NCBI GenBank assembly: GCA_944389395.1
Contig: CALXME010000001.1
Location: 67,957-131,956 of the forward strand
Origin: an uncultured Clostridia bacterium
Lineage (GTDB): Bacteria > Bacillota > Clostridia > TANB77 > CAG-508
Direction: 5' to 3'
DNA length: 64,000 nucleotides
Shown: positions 5,933 through 57,113 of the stretch, piece by piece
Layout of the letters: each line of letters starts with the position of its first letter
Numbering within the stretch: position 1 is the first letter of the stretch
Position numbers and translations under genes: made by a program
Notes under the pieces: generated by a model
The model's database searches: none
The model's input: only the letters and a program-made list of their open reading frames with translations
Told to the model about the DNA's origin: nothing

Positions 5933-7826
<1,894 letters not shown>

Positions 7827-44189: not shown

Positions 44190-45248
<1,059 letters not shown>

Positions 45249-45263: not shown

Positions 45264-46448
45264 ATGAATAAAAAAACAGTAAAAGATATTGATTTGAAAG
45301 GAAAAAAAGTTTTAGTTAGATGTGATTTCAATGTACCTATGGATGAACAAAGAAATATTACAGATAATACAAGAATATTAGCTGCTTTACCTACTATCAA
45401 ATATTTGTTAGATAATAATTGTGCTATTATATTATGTTCTCATTTGGGAAGACCAAAGGGAGAATTTAAACCTGAATTTTCATTGAAACCAGTAGCTAAA
45501 GAATTATCTAGATTATTACATCAGGATGTTATAATGGCAGAAGATGTTGTAGGAGAAGATGCTAAAACAAAAGCTACTAATTTACAGCAAGGACAAATTA
45601 TGTTATTAGAGAATGTAAGATTTCATAAAGAAGAAACAGATAATGAACCTGAATTTTCTAAAAAATTAGCATCTATGGCAGAAATATATGTAAATGATGC
45701 TTTCGGTTCAGCACATAGAGCACATGCCTCTACTGCAGGAGTTGCAGCCTATTTACCAGCAGTATCTGGATTCTTAATTGAAAAAGAATTACAGTTTTTA
45801 GGAGGAGCAGTAACAAATCCACAAAGACCATTTGTAGCTATATTAGGTGGTGCAAAAGTTTCTGATAAAATAGGAGTAATTGACAATCTATTAGAAAAAG
45901 TGGATACTTTAATGATTGGTGGAGGAATGGCTTATACATTTTTTAAGGCACAAGGATATGAAATTGGAAAATCTATTTGTGAATTAGATAAATTAGATTT
46001 GGCAAAAGATTTAATGGAAAAAGCAAAACAAAAAGAAGTTAAATTAATTCTTCCAGTAGATACTGTTATAGCAAAAGAACCAGGAGAAGATGTAGAAACT
46101 AAAACTGTAAAATGTACAGAAATTCCTGCCGATTGGGAAGGTTTTGATATAGGACAAGAAACGATTAAAATATTTAGAGAGGAACTAAAAAATGCTAAAA
46201 CAGTAGTATGGAATGGACCTTTAGGAGTATTTGAAATTGACAAATTTGCAATTGGAACTAATGAAATTGCAAAAGCATTAGCTGATATTGATGCAACAAC
46301 AATTATCGGAGGAGGAGATTCAGCTGCTGCTGTAAAAAAAGCAGGTTTAGAAGATAAAATGACACATATTTCTACTGGTGGAGGAGCTTCTTTGGAATTT
46401 TTAGAAGGGAAAAAATTACCAGGAATTGAGTGTTTAATGGATAAATAA
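45264..46448 (+). CDS. pgk: Phosphoglycerate kinase
   Basis: RCDFNVP.., canonical Pgk. Confidence 0.95.
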
Positions 46449-46810: not shown

Positions 46811-47539
46811 ATGGAAACTTTTCAAAAAGAGATTTTAGGTATTCTAAAGAATATACAACAAAGTATTTCTAGTTTAGAAAATGGACAAGAAGAAATGAGA
46901 TGCGATATCAAAAATCTACAACAAGGGCAAGAAGAAATGAGAAGTGATATCAAAGATTTACAACAAGGGCAAGAAAAAATGAGAAGTGATATCAAAGACT
47001 TACAACAAGGACAAGAAGAAATGAGAAGTGATATCAAAGACTTACAACAAGGGCAAGAAGAAATGAGAAGTGATATCAAAGACTTACAACAAGGACAAGA
47101 ACAAATGAGAAGTGATATCAAAAATTTACAACAAGGACAAGAAGAGATGAGATGCGATATCAAAAATCTACAACAAGGACAAGAAGAAATGAGAAGTGAT
47201 ATCAAAGACTTACAACAGGGACAAGAAGAAATGAGAAGTGATATCAAAGATTTACAACAAGGACAAGAAGAGATGAGAAGTGATATCAAAGATTTACAGC
47301 AAGAACAGAAAGAAATGAGAAAAGAACAAAAGATGATGAAACAGGACATTGAAGAATTACAAGTGGGACAAAAAGAATTGCGACAGGGACAGAGAAATTT
47401 AGAAAAATCAATGTATAGAATAGAGCAACAAAGGATAATCGATAGTAATAACATAGCAAAAATTTTATTATTACAAACAAGAATGCAACAAACATTAGAA
47501 CAACATATACAAGATGATGAAATGAAAATTGCAAATTAA
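46811..47539 (+). CDS. Tandem-repeat coiled-coil protein (10 near-identical 14-aa units GQEEMRSDIKDLQQ)
   Basis: ORF with a strong RBS. Internal 42-bp DNA repeats. Confidence 0.6.
   Translation: METFQKEILGILKNIQQSISSLENGQEEMRCDIKNLQQGQEEMRSDIKDLQQGQEKMRSDIKDLQQGQEEMRSDIKDLQQGQEEMRSDIKDLQQGQEQMRSDIKNLQQGQEEMRCDIKNLQQGQEEMRSDIKDLQQGQEEMRSDIKDLQQGQEEMRSDIKDLQQEQKEMRKEQKMMKQDIEELQVGQKELRQGQRNLEKSMYRIEQQRIIDSNNIAKILLLQTRMQQTLEQHIQDDEMKIAN
46883..47302 (+). repeat. Ten 42-bp tandem repeats (in-frame), degenerate copies to about 47400
   Basis: caacaagggcaagaagaaatgagaagtgatatcaaagattta units with few substitutions. Confidence 0.85.
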
Positions 47540-47651: not shown

Positions 47652-48404
47652 ATGAGAAAAAAAATAATAGCAGGAAATTGGAAAATGAATATGTTGCCTA
47701 ATGAAGCAATTCAATTTATAGAAGAACTAGCTCCGTTAGTAAAAGATACAGAAAATGAAGTAATATTATGCGTGCCATATATAGATTTATTTTATGCATT
47801 ATTAACGGCACAAAATACCAATATTAAAATAGGTGCACAAAATATGCATTTTGCAGAAAATGGTGCATATACAGGCGAAGTTTCTGGAAAGATGTTAAAA
47901 TCAATTAATGTAGAATATGTAATAATAGGTCATTCTGAAAGAAGACAATATTTTAATGAAACTGACGAAACTGTTAATAAAAAAGTAAAGGTAGCTTTTG
48001 AGAATAAATTAAAGCCAATTGTTTGTGTTGGTGAAACTTTAGAACAAAGAGAAGCAGGAAAAGTAGAAGAAATTATCACAAATCAAACAAAACTAGCATT
48101 AGAAGGATTAACAAATGAACAAGTTGAAAACACAATTATAGCATATGAACCAATATGGGCAATTGGAACAGGGAAAACTGCAACAAAAGAAGATGCAAAT
48201 TATGCAGTAAAAGCAATAAGAAATAAAATTGCTGAAATATATGGACAAACGGTGGCTGATGGAGTTATAATACAATATGGAGGAAGTGTAAAAGCTTCTA
48301 ATGCAAAAGAACTATTTGAAATGTCTGATATTGATGGAGGACTAGTGGGAGGAGCTAGTTTAAAAGTAGAAGAATTTAGTAAAATAGTAAATTTTAACAA
48401 ATAA
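47652..48404 (+). CDS. tpiA: Triosephosphate isomerase
   Basis: AGNWKMN.., active site [11 protein letters not shown]. Confidence 0.95.
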
Positions 48405-48446: not shown

Positions 48447-49988
48447 ATGAAAGATAAACTTACAATGCTAATAATCTTAGATGGTTTTGGAGATAACCAA
48501 AACAAAGATGGAAATGCAATAAAATTAGCAAAAACACCTAATATTGATAAACTAATGAAAAAATATCCTAATACAGATATATTTACAAGTGGTTTAGCTG
48601 TAGGATTGCCAGAAGGACAAATGGGAAATTCAGAGGTAGGACATACAAATATAGGAGCAGGAAGAATTGTATATCAGGAATTAACAAGAATAACAAAATC
48701 AATAGAGGATGGAGATTTCTTTACAAATCCTGAATTTATAGCAGCAATTGAAAACTGTAAAAAACACAATTCAAAATTGCACATTTTAGGTTTAGTATCA
48801 GATGGTGGTGTGCATAGCCACAATAGACATTTATATGGTTTATTAGAAATGGCAAAAAGAAGAGATTTTGAGAATGTATATGTACATTGCTTTTTAGATG
48901 GTAGAGATACTCCACCTGCATCTGCAGAAAGTTATATTGTGAAATTACAAGAAAAAATGCAAGAAAAAGAAATTGGAAAAATAGCAAGTATTTGTGGAAG
49001 ATTTTACAGTATGGATAGAGATAAAAGATGGGAAAGAGTGCAAAAATGCTATGATGCCTTAGTAAAAGGAGAAGGAAAAAAGGCAAGTAGTGCTGTAAAA
49101 GCAATAGAAGATTCTTATCAAAAAGAAGTATTTGACGAATTTGTAGAACCAACTGTTATTTGTAATGGAGAAGAACCAGTTGCAACAATCGAAAAAAATG
49201 ATTCTGTTATTTTCTTTAATTTTAGACCAGACAGAGCAAGAGAAATAACAAGAGCATTAGTAGATTCAGACTTTAATGATTTTGAAACTAAAAAAGATTT
49301 AAATTTATATTTTGTATGTTTTACAAATTATGATGAAACAATGCCAAATGTGCATATTGCTTTTAAAAAGGAAACATTGCATAATACATTTGGAGAGTAT
49401 ATTAGTAAATTAGGCTATACACAGCTTAGAATTGCAGAAACAGAAAAATATGCACATGTTACTTTCTTTTTTAATGGTGGGGAAGAAAAATTATTTAAAG
49501 GAGAGGATAGAATTTTAGTACCATCTCCTAAAGTAGAAACCTATGATTTAAAACCAGAAATGAGTGCATATGAAGTGACTGATAAAGTAATAGAAGCAAT
49601 TCAAAAAGATTATTATGATTGTATTATCTTGAATTATGCAAATACTGATATGGTAGGACATACAGGAAGTTTAGATGCTGCTATAAAAGCAGTAGAAGCT
49701 GTAGATAAATGTGTAGGACGAGTAGTAAAATTGGTAGAAGAAAAAGAAGGAAATCTATTAATTACAGCAGATCATGGAAATGCTGAGCAAATGATAGATT
49801 ATAAAACAGGGGAGCCACATACTGCACATACTACAAATCCTGTACCATTGATATTGGTAACTAAAAATAAAAAATTAAAATTAAAGACAGATGGAAAACT
49901 TGCTGATTTAGCACCAACAATGCTTGATTTAATGAATCTAGAAAAACCAGGAGAAATGACTGGAGAAAGTTTATTAGATAAGGAATAA
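48447..49988 (+). CDS. gpmI: 2,3-bisphosphoglycerate-independent phosphoglycerate mutase
   Basis: [20 protein letters not shown], 513 aa. Confidence 0.95.
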
Positions 49989-49994
49989 AAAGTT

Positions 49995-50702
49995 ATGTTA
50001 AATCATACAAAAAAAATAAAAGAAATTTATGAAGATATACAACGAAAATTATTTTATATGATACCAGAGAAATGGGAAAAATTATATCTTTACAGTTCTG
50101 TTATTGATATGCCTAAAAAAGTTCAGAATGGAGAATTATTCTTTTATTATATTCCAAAAGGTATTTTCAAAAAAAATCCTGTGAATGTTTATGAAATACC
50201 ATCAAAATTCAATTTAGATGAAAAAGAATATATAAAATTAGTAGAAATTTTATATGATAAAGTAAAGGAATTAAGAGAAGAATTTAGAAAATCAGAATCT
50301 GGAACAATTTGGAGTAATATAACAATATCTATTCAAAATCTTAAATTTAAAGTAGAATATGGATATGAAGATTTAATAAACTCGAATTTTAATAGTTATG
50401 AAAGACATGTTATATGGAGATATCAATATTTAGAAATCGGATTAGAACAAGTAAGTAAAAAAGATAGAGAAATTCTAAAAAGATATATTAATGGACCTAA
50501 AACGATGGGAAGAAAAGAAGTATATGAAACAGGAATTTATATTCAAGACATTAAAAATATAGTAGATTATACAACTCAAAATTATGAAAGTATACAAAAT
50601 GTAGAATATGTTTCTACGAAAGATGAAAAAATCAAGAAAAATCAAATCTTATTGTCAGAAGAAGAAATTCGTAGAGCAAAAATACAAAATGATATTTCAT
50701 AA
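49995..50702 (+). CDS. Hypothetical protein (235 aa)
   Basis: No motif. First gene of the GGGtGRT neighbourhood, 7 nt after the gpmI stop. Confidence 0.4.
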   Translation: MLNHTKKIKEIYEDIQRKLFYMIPEKWEKLYLYSSVIDMPKKVQNGELFFYYIPKGIFKKNPVNVYEIPSKFNLDEKEYIKLVEILYDKVKELREEFRKSESGTIWSNITISIQNLKFKVEYGYEDLINSNFNSYERHVIWRYQYLEIGLEQVSKKDREILKRYINGPKTMGRKEVYETGIYIQDIKNIVDYTTQNYESIQNVEYVSTKDEKIKKNQILLSEEEIRRAKIQNDIS

Positions 50703-50772
50703 GTCATTAATTTTAGGGGAACCTAAAAACAATAGATAAATAAAAAACAAAGTATCGAAAGGAGCAATTAAA

Positions 50773-51465
50773 ATGATTTATTCAAAAGAATTAGAAGAAA
50801 TGTGCGTAGTAAAAAAAGGAGTAGACCATGGACCAGCACCAATACCAGAAGAAGGTAAATGGGTAAAAGCAAAAGAAATAAAAGACATTTCAGGTTTAAC
50901 ACATGGAATTGGGTGGTGTGCACCACAACAAGGAGCATGTAAATTAACTTTGAATGTAAAAGATGGTATTATACAAGAAGCATTAGTAGAAACAATTGGA
51001 TGCTCAGGAATGACACATTCAGCTGCAATGGCAGGAGAAATATTAGTTGGAAAAACAATATTAGAAGCATTAAATACAGATTTAGTTTGTGATGCTATTA
51101 ATACCGCTATGAGAGAATTATTCTTACAAATAGTATATGGAAGAACACAAACAGCATTTTCAGAAGGAGGACTTCCTGTAGGAGCAGGACTTGAAGATTT
51201 AGGAAAAGGTCATACATCACAAGTAGGAACAATATATTCAAGCACATTAAAAGGCCCAAGATATTTACAATTAACAGAAGGTTACATAGTAGAGCTTGGA
51301 TTAGATAAAGATGACCAAATTATAGGATATAAATATGTTCATATGGGAAAAATGATGGATAATATAAAAAAAGGAATAGAACCAATGGAAGCAATTGAAA
51401 AAGCTTCAGGAACTTATGGAAGATTTGACGAAGCTGTTAAGAAAATTGATCCAAGAAAAGAATAA
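50773..51465 (+). CDS. IscU/NifU-like Fe-S scaffold domain fused to an uncharacterised C-terminal domain
   Basis: Three-Cys pattern aligns with IscU: GWCAPQQGAC, GCSGMTHSAAMAGEILVGKTILEAL, LVCDAI. About 100 extra C-terminal residues. Confidence 0.55.
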   Translation: MIYSKELEEMCVVKKGVDHGPAPIPEEGKWVKAKEIKDISGLTHGIGWCAPQQGACKLTLNVKDGIIQEALVETIGCSGMTHSAAMAGEILVGKTILEALNTDLVCDAINTAMRELFLQIVYGRTQTAFSEGGLPVGAGLEDLGKGHTSQVGTIYSSTLKGPRYLQLTEGYIVELGLDKDDQIIGYKYVHMGKMMDNIKKGIEPMEAIEKASGTYGRFDEAVKKIDPRKE

Positions 51466-51479
51466 TAAGAAGGTAAGAT

Positions 51480-51896
51480 ATGAATATTTATTTTTCAGGT
51501 TCAATATATGGTGGAAGGCAAAAATTAGATACATATAAAAAATTAATAAAAGAGTTAGCTAAGTTCGGAACAATTCTAGATGAAGAAGTCGCTGATGATA
51601 ATGTTTTAGTTAAAGAAGCAAATCTTTCAGATAATGATGTTTTCGAAAGTTTAGTAAATAGGCTTAAGCAAGCAGATTTGATTTTTGCAGAAGTAACAGT
51701 TCCATCATTAGGTGTAGGATATGAACTTGGGTATGCAGATAGCCAAAATAAGAGAATAGTATGTGTTTATGATAAAACTGTAACACCCAAAGTTACTACA
51801 ATGCTTAGAGGTAATAAAAAATTAAAAATAATTCCATATACAGATATAGATGAAATAATAAATAATTTGGAAAATATATTAAAGGAGGAAAATTAA
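51480..51896 (+). CDS. DNPH1/Rcl-like 2'-deoxynucleoside 5'-phosphate N-hydrolase (nucleoside 2-deoxyribosyltransferase fold)
   Basis: YFSGSIYGGR, AEVTVPSLGVGYELGYA, NKRIVCVY closely match DNPH1 motifs. Confidence 0.65.
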   Translation: MNIYFSGSIYGGRQKLDTYKKLIKELAKFGTILDEEVADDNVLVKEANLSDNDVFESLVNRLKQADLIFAEVTVPSLGVGYELGYADSQNKRIVCVYDKTVTPKVTTMLRGNKKLKIIPYTDIDEIINNLENILKEEN

Positions 51897-52898
51897 ATGG
51901 CAGTAACATTTGAAAGTTATGAAAGAAGAATAGACCAAATTAAACCAGTAATGGAAAAATACGGAATAAAAGATTTTGAGGATGCATTAAAAATATGTAC
52001 AGATAAAGGATTTAATCCTTATGAAATCGTAAAAGGGGTACAACCAATTTGTTTTGAAAATGCAGCTTGGGCATATACTTTAGGTGCAGCAATTGCAATA
52101 AAAAAAGGATGTACAAAAGCAGCTGATGCAGCAAAAGCAATAGGAGAGGGATTACAAGCATTTTGTATACCTGGTTCTGTAGCAGATGACAGAAAAGTAG
52201 GATTAGGACATGGAAATTTAGCTTCTATGTTATTATCAGAAGATACAAAATGTTTTGCGTTTTTAGCAGGTCATGAGAGTTTTGCAGCAGCAGAAGGAGC
52301 AATTGGTATTGCAAAATCAGCTAATAAAGTAAGAAAAGAACCATTAAGAGTTATTTTAAATGGATTAGGAAAAGATGCAGCACAAGTTATCTCAAGAATA
52401 AATGGATTTACTTATGTAAAAACAGATTTTGATTTCTTTACAGGAAAGGTAAATGTAATAGAGGAAATTCCATATTCAGATGGAGAAAGAGCAAAAGTTA
52501 AGTGCTATGGAGCAAATGATGTTAGAGAAGGTGTAGCTATTATGTGGTTAGAAGATGTGGATGTATCTATTACAGGAAATTCAACAAATCCAACAAGATT
52601 CCAACATCCAGTAGCTGGAACTTATAAAAAAGAAAGAATTGAAGCAGGAAAGAAATATTTCTCAGTGGCATCAGGAGGAGGAACAGGAAGAACACTTCAT
52701 CCAGATAATATGGCAGCAGGTCCTGCATCTTATGGTATGACTGATACAATGGGAAGAATGCATTCAGATGCACAATTTGCAGGAAGTTCTTCTGTACCAG
52801 CACATGTAGAAATGATGGGATTAATCGGTATGGGAAATAATCCAATGGTTGGTGCTTCTGTTGCAGTTGCAGTTGCAGTTGAAGAAGCAATGAAATAA
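51897..52898 (+). CDS. GGGtGRT family protein (uncharacterised, PF14057-like)
   Basis: Eponymous motif VASGGGTGRTLHPDNM. ATG overlaps the stop of the upstream gene (TAAATG). Confidence 0.75.
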   Translation: MAVTFESYERRIDQIKPVMEKYGIKDFEDALKICTDKGFNPYEIVKGVQPICFENAAWAYTLGAAIAIKKGCTKAADAAKAIGEGLQAFCIPGSVADDRKVGLGHGNLASMLLSEDTKCFAFLAGHESFAAAEGAIGIAKSANKVRKEPLRVILNGLGKDAAQVISRINGFTYVKTDFDFFTGKVNVIEEIPYSDGERAKVKCYGANDVREGVAIMWLEDVDVSITGNSTNPTRFQHPVAGTYKKERIEAGKKYFSVASGGGTGRTLHPDNMAAGPASYGMTDTMGRMHSDAQFAGSSSVPAHVEMMGLIGMGNNPMVGASVAVAVAVEEAMK

Positions 52899-52908
52899 AA
52901 TAAAAAAA

Positions 52909-52932
52909 ATAGCCTTAGGGGCTATTTTTTTG
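52909..52932 (+). terminator. Rho-independent terminator (ATAGCC-TTAGG-GGCTAT + T7)
   Basis: Seen in sequence after the GGGtGRT gene. Confidence 0.65.
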
Positions 52933-55157: not shown

Positions 55158-55231
<74 letters not shown>

Positions 55232-55355: not shown

Positions 55356-57113
55356 ATGAAAGCACTAGAAATTAGAAATAAATATTTAAACTTTTTTAAA
55401 AAACATGGGCACAATGTCATTCCATCAGCACCATTAATACCAGAAAATGACCCATCTGTATTATTCACAACAGCAGGAATGCAACCATTAGTACCATATT
55501 TATTAGGAGAAAAACATCCAGAAGGAACTAGATTAACAGACTATCAAAAATGTGTAAGAACAAATGATATAGAAGAAGTAGGAGATAATAGACATTTAAC
55601 TTACTTTGAAATGCTAGGAAATTGGTCATTAGGAGATTATTTCAAAGAAGAATCTATTCAAATGAGTTATGATTTTTTAACAAAAGAATTACAAATACCA
55701 GCAGAAAAATTATCTGTTACTTGTTTTGCAGGGGATAAAGATTGTCCAAAAGATGAAGTATCAGCTTCTTGCTGGAAAAAAGCAGGAATTCCAGAAGAAA
55801 GAATCTATTTTTATGGAAAAGATGATAATTGGTGGATTGCAGGAGAAGAAGGACCATGTGGACCAGATACAGAAATGTTCTATGATACAGGAAAACCAGC
55901 ATGTTCACCAGATTGTCAACCATCTTGTGATTGTGGTAAATATGTGGAAATTTGGAATAATGTATTTATGGAATATTTTAAGGATAAAAATGGATATACT
56001 AAATTAAAGCAAAAAAATGTAGATACAGGATTAGGTTTAGAAAGAATGACAATGTTATTACAAGGAAAAGAAACACCTTATGACACAGAACTTTTTGAAC
56101 CGATTATGAAAAAATTAGAAGAATTACAAAAAATAGATAGTATTCAAAGTAGAAGAATAGTAGCAGAACATTTACGTTCTAGTATGATGATTATTGCAGA
56201 TGGTGGAAGACCAAGTAATATCGATAGAGGCTATGTATTAAGAAGACTTATTAGAAGAATGATAAGACATCTTAATAAATTACAAGTTAGTTTAGATGAA
56301 ATTTCCACACTGATTGCAATTAATGTGGAGAACTTAAAAGCAATGTATCCAGAATTAGAGAAAAATCAAGCGATTATAAAGGATGTTATTTTAGAAGAAA
56401 AAAATAAATTTGTAAAAACATTAGCACATGGAGAAAGAGAATTTAACAAAGAAATGCAAAAAGCAAAACAGGCAGGAACAAATGTGATAAATGGACAAGT
56501 AGTATTCAGACTATATGATACTTATGGATTTCCACCTGAAGTAACAAAAGAATTGGCAGAAGAAAACGGATTCCAAATTGATTTAGAGGAATTTGAAAAA
56601 TTATTCAAACAACATCAGGAAAAATCAAGAGCAGGCTCAGAACATAAATTTAAAGGTGGATTAGCAGACCAAACAGAAGAAACAATAGCTTATCATACAG
56701 CAACACATTTATTAAATGCAGCTTTAAAACAGATAATAGGAAAAGATGCACATCAAAGAGGTTCCAATATTACAGCTGAAAGAATGAGATTTGATTTTAA
56801 TTGTGACCATAAATTAACAGAAGAAGAAAAAAAGGCTGTAGAAGATTTAGTCAATAAATGGATACAAGAAGGAATACCTGTAACAAAACAAGAAATGAGT
56901 AAAGAAGAGGCAATTAAATCAGGTGCAGAATGTATGTTTATTGAAAAATATCCAGATATTGTTACAGTATATTCTATTGGAAATGTATCAAAAGAATTGT
57001 GTGGAGGTCCACATGTTAACAATACGAAAGAATTAGGAAGATTCAAAATTAAAAAAGAAGAATCTAGTTCTTCAGGTATTAGAAGAATAAAAGCTGTATT
57101 AATAAAAGAATAA
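55356..57113 (+). CDS. alaS: Alanine--tRNA ligase, short form (585 aa; catalytic + editing domains, no mid or C-Ala domains)
   Basis: Class II AlaRS motifs (FTTAGMQPL, FFEMLGNWSLGDYFK), editing motifs HTATHLLNAAL and CGGPHV. Confidence 0.75.
   Translation: MKALEIRNKYLNFFKKHGHNVIPSAPLIPENDPSVLFTTAGMQPLVPYLLGEKHPEGTRLTDYQKCVRTNDIEEVGDNRHLTYFEMLGNWSLGDYFKEESIQMSYDFLTKELQIPAEKLSVTCFAGDKDCPKDEVSASCWKKAGIPEERIYFYGKDDNWWIAGEEGPCGPDTEMFYDTGKPACSPDCQPSCDCGKYVEIWNNVFMEYFKDKNGYTKLKQKNVDTGLGLERMTMLLQGKETPYDTELFEPIMKKLEELQKIDSIQSRRIVAEHLRSSMMIIADGGRPSNIDRGYVLRRLIRRMIRHLNKLQVSLDEISTLIAINVENLKAMYPELEKNQAIIKDVILEEKNKFVKTLAHGEREFNKEMQKAKQAGTNVINGQVVFRLYDTYGFPPEVTKELAEENGFQIDLEEFEKLFKQHQEKSRAGSEHKFKGGLADQTEETIAYHTATHLLNAALKQIIGKDAHQRGSNITAERMRFDFNCDHKLTEEEKKAVEDLVNKWIQEGIPVTKQEMSKEEAIKSGAECMFIEKYPDIVTVYSIGNVSKELCGGPHVNNTKELGRFKIKKEESSSSGIRRIKAVLIKE

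What the first reader, a model, noticed from the sequence alone, without database searches (positions are those of the whole stretch)
49995..52898. Uncharacterised GGGtGRT gene cluster (hypothetical + IscU-like fusion + DNPH1-like N-hydrolase + GGGtGRT protein) where enolase is expected after gpmI
This is a compact four-gene cluster of unknown function that looks conserved and operonic. The glycolytic operon gap-pgk-tpiA-gpmI normally ends with eno. Here gpmI is followed 7 nt later by a 235-aa unknown, a 230-aa protein whose N-terminus aligns with the three-Cys IscU/NifU scaffold plus a novel C-terminal domain, then a DNPH1/Rcl-like nucleotide N-glycosidase, then a GGGtGRT protein with start overlapping stop. 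The GGGtGRT family has no assigned function. The pairing with an Fe-S scaffold-like protein and a deoxynucleotide N-hydrolase suggests an undescribed Fe-S-dependent nucleotide, base or cofactor salvage or modification pathway.
Basis: partly seen in the sequence, partly recalled or inferred. Interest (0 to 1): 0.65.

Follow-up and report, generated by a model that had tools for sequence, protein, structure and literature searches.

The report
Iron-sulfur protein pair inside glycolysis operon
The real conserved unit is two genes, not four: an IscU-like iron-sulfur protein and its GGGtGRT partner, an abundant gut-anaerobe module of unknown function that keeps turning up beside the last enzymes of glycolysis, while the other two genes are unrelated local insertions.

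Summary
The four ORFs exist at the stated coordinates, and the family calls for ORF2-4 are correct: weak IscU-like, DNPH1-like, and full-length PF14057 GGGtGRT. ORF1 is not an unknown. It is a YezG-like immunity-family protein (PF04634).

The "conserved four-gene cluster" does not hold up.
- In 160 other GGGtGRT loci from many phyla, the 230-aa IscU-like gene lies directly upstream wherever upstream DNA is present.
- The DNPH1-like gene occurs in none of them. In the window it sits in a variable spacer that holds a MazG-like gene or repeat DNA in close relatives.
- ORF1 occurs only in close relatives.

So the proposed Fe-S nucleotide-salvage pathway fails its own refutation test.

What remains is a strict two-gene module. 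It evolves far more slowly than the glycolytic genes beside it (97-98% against 78-89% identity to the nearest genome). The small subunit has four invariant cysteines, and the large subunit has no structural relative in the PDB.

In relatives, enolase follows the pair. Elsewhere the pair directly abuts gpmI, eno or pyk. A divergent subfamily always sits in an ApgM-type PGM / pair / unknown protein / His_Phos_1 operon. The best reading is a heteromeric Fe-S protein working at the 3PG-2PG-PEP node. Its chemistry is unknown.

The parts
48447..49988 (+). gpmI (cofactor-independent phosphoglycerate mutase). It is context, and probably a functional neighbour of the pair.
   Evidence: ORF. It is 75-80% identical to the orthologue in L001-L010, and the L001 copy hits PF06415 iPGM_N and PF01676. 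gpmI also directly precedes the pair in the distant locus L177, where gpmI is only 53% identical.
49995..50702 (+). ORF1, 235 aa. A YezG-like (PF04634) immunity-family protein with a C-terminal extension. It is a lineage-specific passenger, not part of the conserved module.
   Evidence: Pfam E 1.6e-26, domain at residues 8-152. It is present at this position only in close relatives L001, L004, L005, L006 and L010, at 45-51% identity. It is absent in L008 and in all other loci. No toxin gene is adjacent.
50703..50772 (+). 70-nt spacer holding a small hairpin (TTTTAGG-GGAA-CCTAAAA, 50711-50728) and the ribosome-binding site AGGAG (50760-50764) of the IscU-like gene.
   Evidence: Read directly from the sequence. 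The hairpin was not tested by folding or conservation.
50773..51465 (+). ORF2, 230 aa. The IscU-like small subunit of the conserved pair. It has an IscU-like core (~43-114), a 42-aa N-terminal extension and a ~115-aa C-terminal region of unknown fold. Cys49, Cys56, Cys77 and Cys106 are invariant, as are His19, His44 and His82 within the main family.
   Evidence: Weak NifU_N/IscU matches. Foldseek finds only IscU/SufU, with prob ~1.0 and TM to target ~0.5, but on a low-confidence model. Invariant residues come from an alignment of 26 sequences across phyla. The four Cys are also kept in the divergent subfamily. The gene is always directly upstream of GGGtGRT.
51480..51896 (+). ORF3, 138 aa. A DNPH1/Rcl-like member of the nucleoside 2-deoxyribosyltransferase superfamily. 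It is a genome-specific insertion in the spacer between the two partner genes, and its 3' end carries the GGGtGRT ribosome-binding site (AAAGGAGGA, 51881-51889).
   Evidence: PF05014 E 2.4e-11. Human DNPH1 E 1e-21, with Tyr24, Ser98 and Glu104 equivalents kept and Asp80 and His56 equivalents replaced (residue numbering from memory of the human sequence). Absent from 160 other loci. The same spacer holds a MazG-like ORF in L001, repeat DNA in L002 and L006, and only 17-57 nt in L003, L005, L008 and L010. GC3 is host-like at 0.129. No phage match.
51897..52898 (+). ORF4, 333 aa. The GGGtGRT protein (PF14057), the large subunit of the conserved pair. It has an N-terminal helical domain (1-113), a Rossmann-like alpha/beta domain (119-258), an ultra-conserved Gly/Ser/His/Met-rich stretch that includes SGGGTGRT (259-266) and is modelled at low confidence (261-308), and C-terminal helices.
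   Evidence: Pfam E 2.2e-198 over the full length. AF2 model has pLDDT 81.6 and pTM 0.82. No PDB relative by sequence or by fold (best Foldseek E 0.012, TM <= 0.32). Invariant residues are listed.
52903..52931 (.). Bidirectional terminator-like hairpin (A-run, GC-containing stem, T-run) that ends the transcription unit right after GGGtGRT.
   Evidence: Terminator scan and sequence.

Best explanation
The functional unit is a two-gene module, IscU-like ORF2 plus GGGtGRT ORF4. Here it is transcribed at the tail of the glycolytic operon gap-pgk-tpiA-gpmI.

ORF1 (YezG-like) and ORF3 (DNPH1-like) are unrelated passengers. They sit in variable intergenic slots of this operon in a small, gene-dense Clostridia genome close to Clostridium sp. 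CAG:354 / Candidatus Merdicola.

The two conserved proteins most likely form an obligate hetero-oligomer. In this model the IscU-derived subunit permanently holds an Fe-S cluster through four invariant cysteines. The GGGtGRT subunit supplies a Rossmann-like ligand-binding and catalytic domain whose invariant loops (AGHESFAAAEG, GLGKDAA, ITGNSTNP, SGGGTGRT) lie at the C-terminal ends of the beta-strands. The cluster would serve either for electron transfer or as a Lewis acid.

The module most likely acts on, or senses, a metabolite at the 3-phosphoglycerate / 2-phosphoglycerate / PEP / pyruvate node of anaerobic glycolysis.

Shown here: strict pairing, extreme conservation, the cysteine pattern, recurrent adjacency to PGM, enolase and pyruvate kinase genes, and the absence of the DNPH1-like gene elsewhere.

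Inferred: complex formation, Fe-S binding, the catalytic role and the substrate.
For: 1. Strict pairing. The IscU-like gene lies 12-64 nt upstream of GGGtGRT in most loci. It is present in 77/80 genome loci spanning Clostridia, Coriobacteriia, Bacteroidota, Akkermansia, Treponema, Syntrophorhabdus and Methanobrevibacter. It is present in 78/80 metagenome loci, and in 60/60 with at least 800 nt of upstream DNA. It is also present in all six contigs of a divergent subfamily, where starts and stops overlap.
2. Extreme constraint. Against the nearest genome L001, the pair is 97% and 98% identical while gap, pgk, tpiA and gpmI are 89, 78, 78 and 78% and YezG is 47%. The family collapses to about three full-length clusters at 50% identity out of 1.84 billion representatives.
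3. Four Cys are invariant across phyla and in the divergent subfamily. The fold is IscU-like.
4. Published iron response and abundance. BT0173-74 falls 11-12.8-fold on iron depletion in B. thetaiotaomicron (PMC10434189). Both proteins change with iron supply in C. pasteurianum (PMC5395762). [quoted passage not shown]
5. Link to lower glycolysis. The order is gpmI-(yezG)-pair-eno in L001 and L005 and gpmI-pair-eno in L008; eno also follows the pair in L007 and L009, whose upstream flanks show no gpmI (L007 is cut at the contig end). gpmI is 68 nt upstream in the distant locus L177. L153 reads eno | pair - pyk, with pyk 34 nt downstream. pyk is adjacent in L134, and eno in Akkermansia L070. The divergent subfamily always sits in the operon [HTH]-ApgM-type iPGM (NF003104, 517 bits against a cut-off of 489)-IscU-like-GGGtGRT-unknown 315-332-aa membrane-anchored protein-His_Phos_1. 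One contig adds a GpmI-type iPGM and another adds a HAD phosphatase.
6. Genetics. Transposon hits in BT0173-4 came out of the same glucose-sensing screen as pfkA (bioRxiv 10.64898/2026.04.10.717545).
7. Structure. The model has a Rossmann-like core. The highest-probability Foldseek hits are NAD(P)- or nucleotide-binding domains (GAPDH, transhydrogenase dIII, PFK). The segment beta151-157 / GLGKDAA / alpha159-169 / beta172-179 with Asp179 fits a GxGxxA...D dinucleotide fingerprint (this reading is my inference).
Against: - Most main-family loci (well over 100 of 160) have no glycolytic neighbour. The census of 123 flanking ORFs found no recurring third partner.
- My enrichment estimate is rough and post hoc. 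About 4 loci outside the window lineage have pgm, eno or pyk as a direct neighbour, against about 0.3-0.4 expected.
- The gpmI-pair arrangements could be inherited from one ancestor rather than being independent events.
- In small co-directional genomes, highly expressed genes may cluster without sharing a function.
- B. thetaiotaomicron mutants grow normally on glucose and show only a 2-fold effect.
- No metal, cofactor, complex or activity has been demonstrated.
- The most conserved part of GGGtGRT is modelled at pLDDT below 50, and the partner model is poor at pLDDT 50.6. Structural arguments are therefore weak.
- All fold matches for GGGtGRT are insignificant (E >= 0.012).
Confidence: 0.55

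Rival explanations
1. All four genes form one operonic pathway in which an Fe-S scaffold-like protein, a deoxynucleotide N-hydrolase and GGGtGRT carry out an undescribed nucleotide, base or cofactor salvage or modification.
For: The four ORFs are co-directional and tightly packed, and the GGGtGRT ribosome-binding site lies inside ORF3. In the nearest genome L001 the same slot holds another nucleotide house-cleaning type gene, which is MazG-like by my reading of its sequence.
Against: The DNPH1-like gene is absent from 160 other loci. PF05014 is not among the 25 most frequent families (the only ones listed) among the 123 flanking ORFs. ORF3 is a singleton cluster on 3 contigs. The spacer it occupies is hypervariable, holding 17-57 nt, repeat DNA or a MazG-like ORF in close relatives. 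ORF1 belongs to an immunity-protein family.
Confidence: 0.03
2. The pair is an Fe-S cluster biogenesis or carrier device. The IscU-like protein would be a true scaffold, as its database name 'NifU' implies, and GGGtGRT an accessory or delivery factor for anaerobes.
For: IscU-like sequence and fold. Sources name the partner NifU or iron-sulfur cluster assembly scaffold. It responds to iron and is abundant.
Against: It scores far below every IscU, NifU and SufU equivalog cut-off, for example 21.5 against 192 bits. It has four invariant Cys rather than the three-Cys labile site. The first Cys position is shifted, and the LPPVK/His segment before the last Cys is deleted (motif knowledge is from memory). 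No recurring cysteine desulfurase appears among the neighbours. It is repressed by iron starvation, whereas established knowledge says stress-type assembly systems are induced. It has an extra ~115-aa C-terminal region.
Confidence: 0.15
3. The pair is a non-catalytic iron, redox or oxygen sensor or regulator. It would bind glycolytic enzymes such as PGM, enolase or PK, or a regulator, and tune lower glycolysis to Fe-S status.
For: Conservation higher than that of the enzymes beside it suggests multiple protein contacts. The Tn phenotype is regulatory and mild, and growth is normal. It responds to iron. An HTH regulator sits in the divergent operon.
Against: Its very high abundance and Rossmann-like pocket with many invariant polar residues look more like an enzyme. 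There is no DNA-binding or known signalling domain.
Confidence: 0.12
4. The proximity to glycolysis is incidental, reflecting shared high expression in compact genomes. The pair would work in an unrelated anaerobic redox process such as oxidative or nitrosative stress, or ferredoxin-linked metabolism.
For: The majority of loci have unrelated neighbours. It is co-expressed with rubrerythrins in gut isolates. A rubredoxin gene lies next to it in a Methanobacteriaceae contig. The authors of PMC10434189 grouped it with hcp and nitrogen-cycle genes.
Against: The direct neighbours, when glycolytic, are specifically pgm, eno or pyk and never gap, pgk or tpiA. The divergent subfamily keeps two to three phosphoglycerate-mutase-type genes in one operon across contigs of 36-50% GC. 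It was hit in the same screen as pfkA.
Confidence: 0.15

Closest known systems
Bacteroides thetaiotaomicron BT0173-BT0174 (GGGtGRT protein plus 'NifU homolog'), and C. pasteurianum F502_05012 / F502_05017
   Same: The same two families sit as adjacent genes. They respond to iron, are abundant, and have no known function. The window proteins are typical members, 78-98% identical to homologues in other phyla.
   Different: In the window the two genes are split by a DNPH1-like insertion and sit at the end of the glycolytic operon after gpmI. I did not examine the BT0173-4 neighbourhood here.
IscU / NifU N-terminal domain / SufU Fe-S scaffolds (PF01592)
   Same: A beta-sheet plus helix core with Cys at the GC(S/G) position and before the last helix. 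Foldseek finds only this family.
   Different: The score is below the family thresholds. There are four invariant Cys with a shifted first Cys. The segment carrying LPPVK/His is deleted. N- and C-terminal regions add 157 residues. There is no cysteine desulfurase partner, and there is an obligate GGGtGRT partner instead.
Two-subunit Fe-S enzymes of anaerobes, such as L-serine dehydratase SdaAA/SdaAB and class I fumarate or tartrate hydratases. This is a working analogy from general knowledge only.
   Same: A small (~200-230 aa) and a large (~300-330 aa) subunit are encoded side by side. They depend on iron, are restricted to anaerobes, are abundant, and act on small hydroxy or phospho acids near central metabolism.
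   Different: No sequence or fold relationship was detected. Those enzymes hold the cluster with three Cys in the catalytic subunit, whereas here four Cys sit in an IscU-like subunit. No activity is known.
DNPH1 / Rcl (2'-deoxynucleoside 5'-phosphate N-hydrolase), compared with ORF3 only
   Same: E 1e-21 over 110 residues. The GYELG nucleophile Glu, the N-terminal YF(S/C)GSI motif and the PSLG serine are conserved.
   Different: The Asp80 and His56 equivalents are Leu and Glu. The gene is bacterial, is a singleton, and is inserted between two unrelated genes. Its substrate is unknown.
Firmicute central glycolytic operon gapA-pgk-tpiA-gpmI-eno (order as in Bacillus subtilis, from general knowledge)
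   Same: gap, pgk, tpiA and gpmI are in the canonical order on one strand.
   Different: Extra genes are interleaved: a repeat ORF, the YezG-like gene, the pair and the DNPH1-like gene. eno is missing from the window, but it follows the pair in relatives L001, L005, L007, L008 and L009.

Membership tests
PF14057 GGGtGRT family (ORF4) | Full-length match to the family HMM above the gathering score | tested here: met
   658.4 bits against a cut-off of 27, covering profile positions 1-327 of 327.
PF14057 GGGtGRT family (ORF4) | The eponymous GGGtGRT motif | tested here: met
   SGGGTGRT at residues 259-266. It is invariant in 75 aligned sequences, including the divergent subfamilies.
GGGtGRT / IscU-like two-gene module | A 220-230-aa IscU-like gene directly upstream on the same strand | tested here: met
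   Present in the window, although 431 nt away because of the ORF3 insertion. Present in 77/80 and 78/80 other loci, the rest being cut at a contig end, and in 6/6 divergent contigs.
IscU/NifU Fe-S scaffold (PF01592, TIGR01999, TIGR03419) (ORF2) | HMM score above the curated cut-off | tested here: not met
   PF01592 scores 21.3 against 22. TIGR03419 scores 26.6 against 187.9. TIGR01999 scores 21.5 against 192.4.
IscU/NifU Fe-S scaffold (ORF2) | Three conserved cluster-ligand cysteines in the canonical positions, plus the His / LPPVK segment before the third Cys | tested here: inconclusive
   Cys77 and Cys106 align with the second and third IscU Cys. The first IscU Cys aligns with Gln53, while Cys49 and Cys56 flank it. 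About 9 residues that would include the LPPVK/His region are missing. The positions of the IscU motifs are from memory.
IscU/NifU Fe-S scaffold (ORF2) | IscU fold | tested here: met
   The top 25 Foldseek PDB hits are all IscU or SufU, with prob 0.94-1.0, TM to target ~0.5 and rmsd ~2.7-3.1 over ~100 columns. However, the model pLDDT is only 50.6 and E-values are 1.6e-3 or worse.
IscU/NifU Fe-S scaffold (ORF2) | Genomic association with a cysteine desulfurase (IscS, NifS or SufS) | tested here: not met
   The neighbours in the window are the YezG-like gene and the DNPH1-like and GGGtGRT genes. No desulfurase family is among the 25 most frequent families (the only ones listed) among 123 flanking ORFs of 40 loci.
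DNPH1 / Rcl N-hydrolase (ORF3) | Membership of the PF05014 superfamily, and closer similarity to DNPH1 than to nucleoside deoxyribosyltransferases | tested here: met
   PF05014 scores 44.2 against 28.8. DNPH1 chains match at E 1e-21, while NDT chains match at E 0.77 or worse.
DNPH1 / Rcl N-hydrolase (ORF3) | Catalytic and binding residues Tyr24, His56, Asp80, Ser98 and Glu104 (human numbering) | tested here: inconclusive
   Tyr, Ser and Glu are conserved. The Asp80 position is Leu and the His56 position is Glu in the HMMER alignment. The residue roles and numbering are from memory.
YezG-like immunity protein (PF04634) (ORF1) | HMM match above the cut-off | tested here: met
   93.6 bits against 21.7, over residues 8-152. 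TIGR01741 scores 75.8, which is below its cut-off of 82.
YezG-like immunity protein (ORF1) | An adjacent cognate polymorphic (LXG/YeeF-type) toxin gene | tested here: not met
   The upstream gene is gpmI and the downstream gene is the IscU-like gene. The same holds in relatives. The rest of the window was not searched for toxins.
Known anti-phage defence systems (PADLOC) | Any of the four proteins matching a defence-system model | tested here: not met
   The only hit is a weak ThsB TIR-like match for ORF3 (E 1.6e-5, 22 bits). ORF1, ORF2 and ORF4 have none.

The most novel reading that the evidence does not exclude
The IscU-like/GGGtGRT pair is a so-far unrecognised Fe-S component of lower glycolysis in anaerobes. 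It could be an enzyme or a control element acting at the 3-phosphoglycerate / 2-phosphoglycerate / PEP / pyruvate node. It would use a domesticated IscU fold as a permanent cluster-binding subunit and a large subunit with no structural relative in the PDB. It is among the most conserved and most abundant proteins of gut, rumen and digester anaerobes, including methanogens.
Probability: 0.3. Interest if true: 0.85.

Novelty: new member of a known kind. Interest (0 to 1): 0.5.

Why it matters
The window copy is an ordinary member of a catalogued but uncharacterised family, so the instance itself is not new. The family matters for several reasons.
- It evolves more slowly than the glycolytic enzymes next to it.
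- It is found across bacterial phyla and in methanogens.
- It is highly expressed in gut and rumen communities and is strongly iron-regulated.
- It has no biochemical function and no solved structure.

This analysis narrows the problem in three ways. It removes the misleading DNPH1-like and YezG-like neighbours. It defines the unit as two genes with four invariant cysteines. It also gives a testable lead: the pair recurs directly beside gpmI, eno and pyk, and a divergent subfamily sits in a conserved operon with ApgM-type and histidine-phosphatase-type phosphoglycerate mutase homologues. That lead agrees with the pfkA-like hit in a published Bacteroides glucose-sensing screen. If the link holds, a missing iron-dependent step or control point in one of the best-known pathways would become directly testable in tractable gut bacteria.

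Tried and rejected
- Sequence and profile searches of GGGtGRT against the PDB found nothing. NCBIfam has no model for it.
The permitted shallow alignment (88-97% identical) gave a poor model with pLDDT 50.6, so nothing can be said about the C-terminal half of ORF2.
- The apparent longer 'fusion' proteins P0001, P0003, P0288, P0289, P0390, P0392 and P0395 are assembly artefacts with internal duplications, not natural fusions. Several '50% representatives' are frameshifted.
- A third conserved partner in the main family was rejected. The census of 123 flanking ORFs showed none. An apparent shared cluster turned out to be generic ABC ATPases.
- ORF3 has no phage match, and no defence-system membership was found. 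Rfam found no RNA element in the cluster, only a tRNA-Gly at 55158-55231 on the minus strand.
It was reused as an independent replication sample.
- The unknown 315-332-aa protein of the divergent operon has no Pfam or PDB match.
- The C. difficile 'NifU' in PMC6311696 is the true IscS-linked scaffold and is not this family.

Full report
**The observation**

The region holds four ORFs on the + strand at exactly the stated coordinates. They follow gap (44244-45248), pgk (45264-46448), a repeat ORF, tpiA (47652-48404) and gpmI (48447-49988).

- ORF4 (333 aa) matches PF14057 GGGtGRT end to end (E 2e-198).
- ORF3 (138 aa) matches PF05014 above its cut-off and human DNPH1 at E 1e-21.
- ORF2 (230 aa) resembles IscU/NifU only in residues ~43-114 and only weakly. 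The Pfam score is 21.3 bits against a cut-off of 22. NCBIfam equivalog scores are about ten times below their cut-offs. PDB IscU matches have E 1e-4 to 1e-3.
- ORF1 (235 aa) is not an unknown. It matches the YezG-like immunity family PF04634 (E 1.6e-26).

The ORF3 stop and the ORF4 start abut (TAA|ATG), and the ORF4 ribosome-binding site lies inside the end of ORF3. A terminator-like hairpin at 52903-52931 follows ORF4. There is no enolase anywhere in the window.

Cluster-mates of the window proteins carry the names Clostridium sp. CAG:354 and Candidatus Merdicola. The nearest genome is a 1.55-Mb uncultured Clostridia chromosome (L001).

**What is conserved**

I scanned one genome per species for GGGtGRT relatives and kept 80 loci. 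They come from Clostridia MAGs, Collinsella/Olsenella, Alistipes/Parabacteroides, Akkermansia, Treponema, Syntrophorhabdus and Methanobrevibacter. All are 78-98% identical to ORF4.

tblastn with the window proteins gave three results.
- The IscU-like gene lies directly upstream of GGGtGRT in 77 of the 80 loci. The other three are cut at the contig end.
- The DNPH1-like gene is in none, even at E 10.
- The YezG-like gene and the glycolytic genes are present only in the closest relatives.

A second, independent sample of 80 metagenome loci gave the same picture. The partner is present in 78/80, and in 60/60 with at least 800 nt of upstream DNA. The spacer is mostly 12-64 nt. The DNPH1-like gene is present in 0/80.

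ORF3 is a singleton cluster at 90% identity and was seen on 3 contigs, whereas the exact ORF4 sequence was seen on 42.

Among close relatives the spacer between the two partner genes is hypervariable.
- L003, L005, L008 and L010 have only 17-57 nt.
- L004 has 117 nt.
- L002 and L006 carry a shared repeat element.
- L001 carries a 111-aa MazG-like ORF.
- The window carries the DNPH1-like ORF.

ORF3 has host-like codon GC, no phage match, and no membership of a defence system. I conclude that ORF3 is a local insertion and that the four-gene "cluster" is not a unit.

**The core module**

The pair evolves much more slowly than its neighbours. Identity to L001 is:

| Gene | Identity to L001 |
|---|---|
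| IscU-like | 97% |
| GGGtGRT | 98% |
| gap | 89% |
| pgk | 78% |
| tpiA | 78% |
| gpmI | 78% |
| YezG-like | 47% |

In a library clustered at 50% identity, the whole family reduces to about three real full-length representatives.

An alignment of partners from different phyla shows invariant Cys49, Cys56, Cys77 and Cys106, and invariant His19, His44 and His82. The four Cys are also kept in the divergent subfamily, at about 57% identity. Compared with IscU, the first Cys is displaced and the segment before the last Cys is shortened. Four fixed Cys suggest a permanently bound cluster rather than a transient scaffold site. This is inference.

The AF2 model of GGGtGRT has pLDDT 81.6 and pTM 0.82. 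It shows an N-terminal helical domain, a Rossmann-like alpha/beta domain (119-258), and then the most conserved stretch of the family (259-308, including SGGGTGRT) at pLDDT below 50. That would fit a region that orders only with a partner or cofactor. The invariant loops lie at the C-terminal ends of the strands.

Foldseek against the PDB gives nothing significant. The best E is 0.012 and TM is at most 0.32. The highest-probability hits are NAD(P)- or nucleotide-binding domains of GAPDH, transhydrogenase dIII and PFK. The segment beta151-157 / G156-L-G158-K-D-A161-A / helix / beta172-179 with Asp179 fits a dinucleotide-binding fingerprint. This is my reading and was not tested.

The partner model is poor (pLDDT 50.6), but its only fold matches are IscU and SufU.

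**Surroundings and function**

In relatives L001, L005, L007, L008 and L009, enolase directly follows the pair. The ancestral order in this lineage is therefore gap-pgk-tpiA-gpmI-(yezG)-pair-eno. The window, like L002-L004, has a YgjP-like gene downstream instead, at varying distance.

Outside this lineage, most loci have unrelated neighbours and no recurring third gene. When a glycolytic gene is the direct neighbour, however, it is always from the lower segment:
- gpmI lies 68 nt upstream in L177, where gpmI is only 53% identical to the window copy.
- L153 has eno on the opposite strand, then the pair, then pyruvate kinase 34 nt downstream.
- pyk is adjacent in L134.
- eno is adjacent in Akkermansia L070.

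gap, pgk and tpiA appear only further away, as part of the operon. My rough expectation for pgm, eno or pyk as a direct neighbour is about 0.3-0.4 loci in this sample. About four were observed outside the window lineage. This estimate is post hoc and not phylogenetically corrected.

The strongest evidence comes from a divergent GGGtGRT subfamily that is 49-57% identical to ORF4. In six distinct contigs of 36-50% GC, it always sits in the operon [HTH]-ApgM-type cofactor-independent PGM-IscU-like-GGGtGRT-unknown 315-332-aa membrane-anchored protein-His_Phos_1. One of these contigs is from a spore-former.

The ApgM-type gene scores 517 bits against NF003104, above the cut-off of 489. One contig adds a GpmI-type PGM and another adds a HAD phosphatase.

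**Published data**

- BT0173-74 falls 11-12.8-fold under iron depletion (PMC10434189).
- Both proteins change with iron supply in C. pasteurianum (PMC5395762).
- GGGtGRT is highly expressed in vivo by distant gut taxa (PMC11204068) and is seen in rumen metaproteomes (PMC7035244).
- Transposon insertions in BT0173-4 came out of the same glucose-sensing screen as pfkA. The effect was 2-fold and growth was normal (bioRxiv 10.64898/2026.04.10.717545).
- No paper in the library assigns a function.

**Explanation and rivals**

I consider it most likely that the pair is an obligate heteromeric Fe-S protein whose role is tied to the 3PG / 2PG / PEP / pyruvate node. It could be an enzyme, either an oxidoreductase or a lyase, or a control element.

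The strict pairing, the passenger status of ORF1 and ORF3, and the cysteine pattern are shown. Complex formation, cluster binding and the substrate are inferred.

The rivals are:
- An Fe-S biogenesis or carrier device. Against it: no desulfurase partner, four fixed Cys, and repression on iron starvation.
- A non-catalytic sensor.
- An unrelated redox function with only incidental proximity to glycolysis.

**Novelty and verdict**

The window copy is a typical member of a named but uncharacterised family, in a variant arrangement: split by an insertion and embedded in the glycolytic operon. The instance is ordinary. The family is a real open problem, and the link to lower glycolysis is a concrete, testable lead.

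I score interest at 0.5. The most novel reading not excluded is an unrecognised Fe-S component of lower glycolysis, with probability about 0.3.

Noticed in passing
window 46811-47539 (tandem repeat 46883-47321): A 242-aa coiled-coil ORF lies between pgk and tpiA. It is built from 10.5 copies of a 42-nt (14-aa, 'GQEEMRSDIKDLQQ') repeat. It gives only weak coiled-coil and XhlA-like matches. The same slot holds Nudix and guanylate-kinase-like ORFs in L001, a guanylate-kinase-like ORF in L004, and an IspH-like ORF in L005. The intergenic slots of this glycolytic operon are therefore generally insertion-prone.
   Followed up: partly
L001 6649-6984: In the nearest genome, the spacer between the IscU-like and GGGtGRT genes holds a 111-aa ORF that looks MazG-like (NTP pyrophosphohydrolase) by eye. 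That is another small nucleotide house-cleaning type gene exactly where the window has the DNPH1-like gene. It was not checked against a profile library.
   Followed up: no
L002 ~480-540 and L006 ~6850-6900: The spacers between the partner genes in two relatives share a ~35-nt element (…GAATGAAAA.(T/C)GGCATCTTGCGG(C/T)GTCAAACTTCAT…). It may be a small mobile or repeat element. It is not present in the window.
   Followed up: partly
L082, L087, L090, L092, L094, L096 (divergent GGGtGRT operon): A conserved protein of 315-332 aa directly follows GGGtGRT in the divergent subfamily, with overlapping or near-overlapping start. It has N-terminal transmembrane helices and no Pfam or PDB match, and copies are 49-59% identical across contigs. 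It is absent from the window and from main-family loci.
   Followed up: partly
window 49995-50702 and the same position in L001, L004, L005, L006, L010: An 'orphan' YezG-like immunity-family gene is kept between gpmI and the pair in several related genomes, with no toxin gene next to it. It diverges much faster (45-51% identity) than its neighbours (75-98%).
   Followed up: partly
window 1-64000: Almost every ORF of at least 100 aa that looks real is on the + strand. GC skew is strongly positive throughout (0.19-0.38) at 24-31% GC. The only RNA gene found, tRNA-Gly(TCC) at 55158-55231, is on the minus strand.
   Followed up: no
window 55356-57113: A 585-aa ORF with an alanyl-tRNA-synthetase-like N-terminus (by eye) is much shorter than canonical AlaRS, which is about 870 aa. 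It was not checked with a profile search.
   Followed up: no
L048 and L100 (Methanobrevibacter / Methanobacteriaceae MAG contigs): The pair occurs at 82-87% identity to the window proteins on contigs assigned to methanogenic archaea. L100 has an archaeal-type ATP-dependent DNA ligase, ThiC, rubredoxin and DUF2099 as neighbours. Such high identity across domains suggests either extreme constraint or recent transfer among gut anaerobes.
   Followed up: partly
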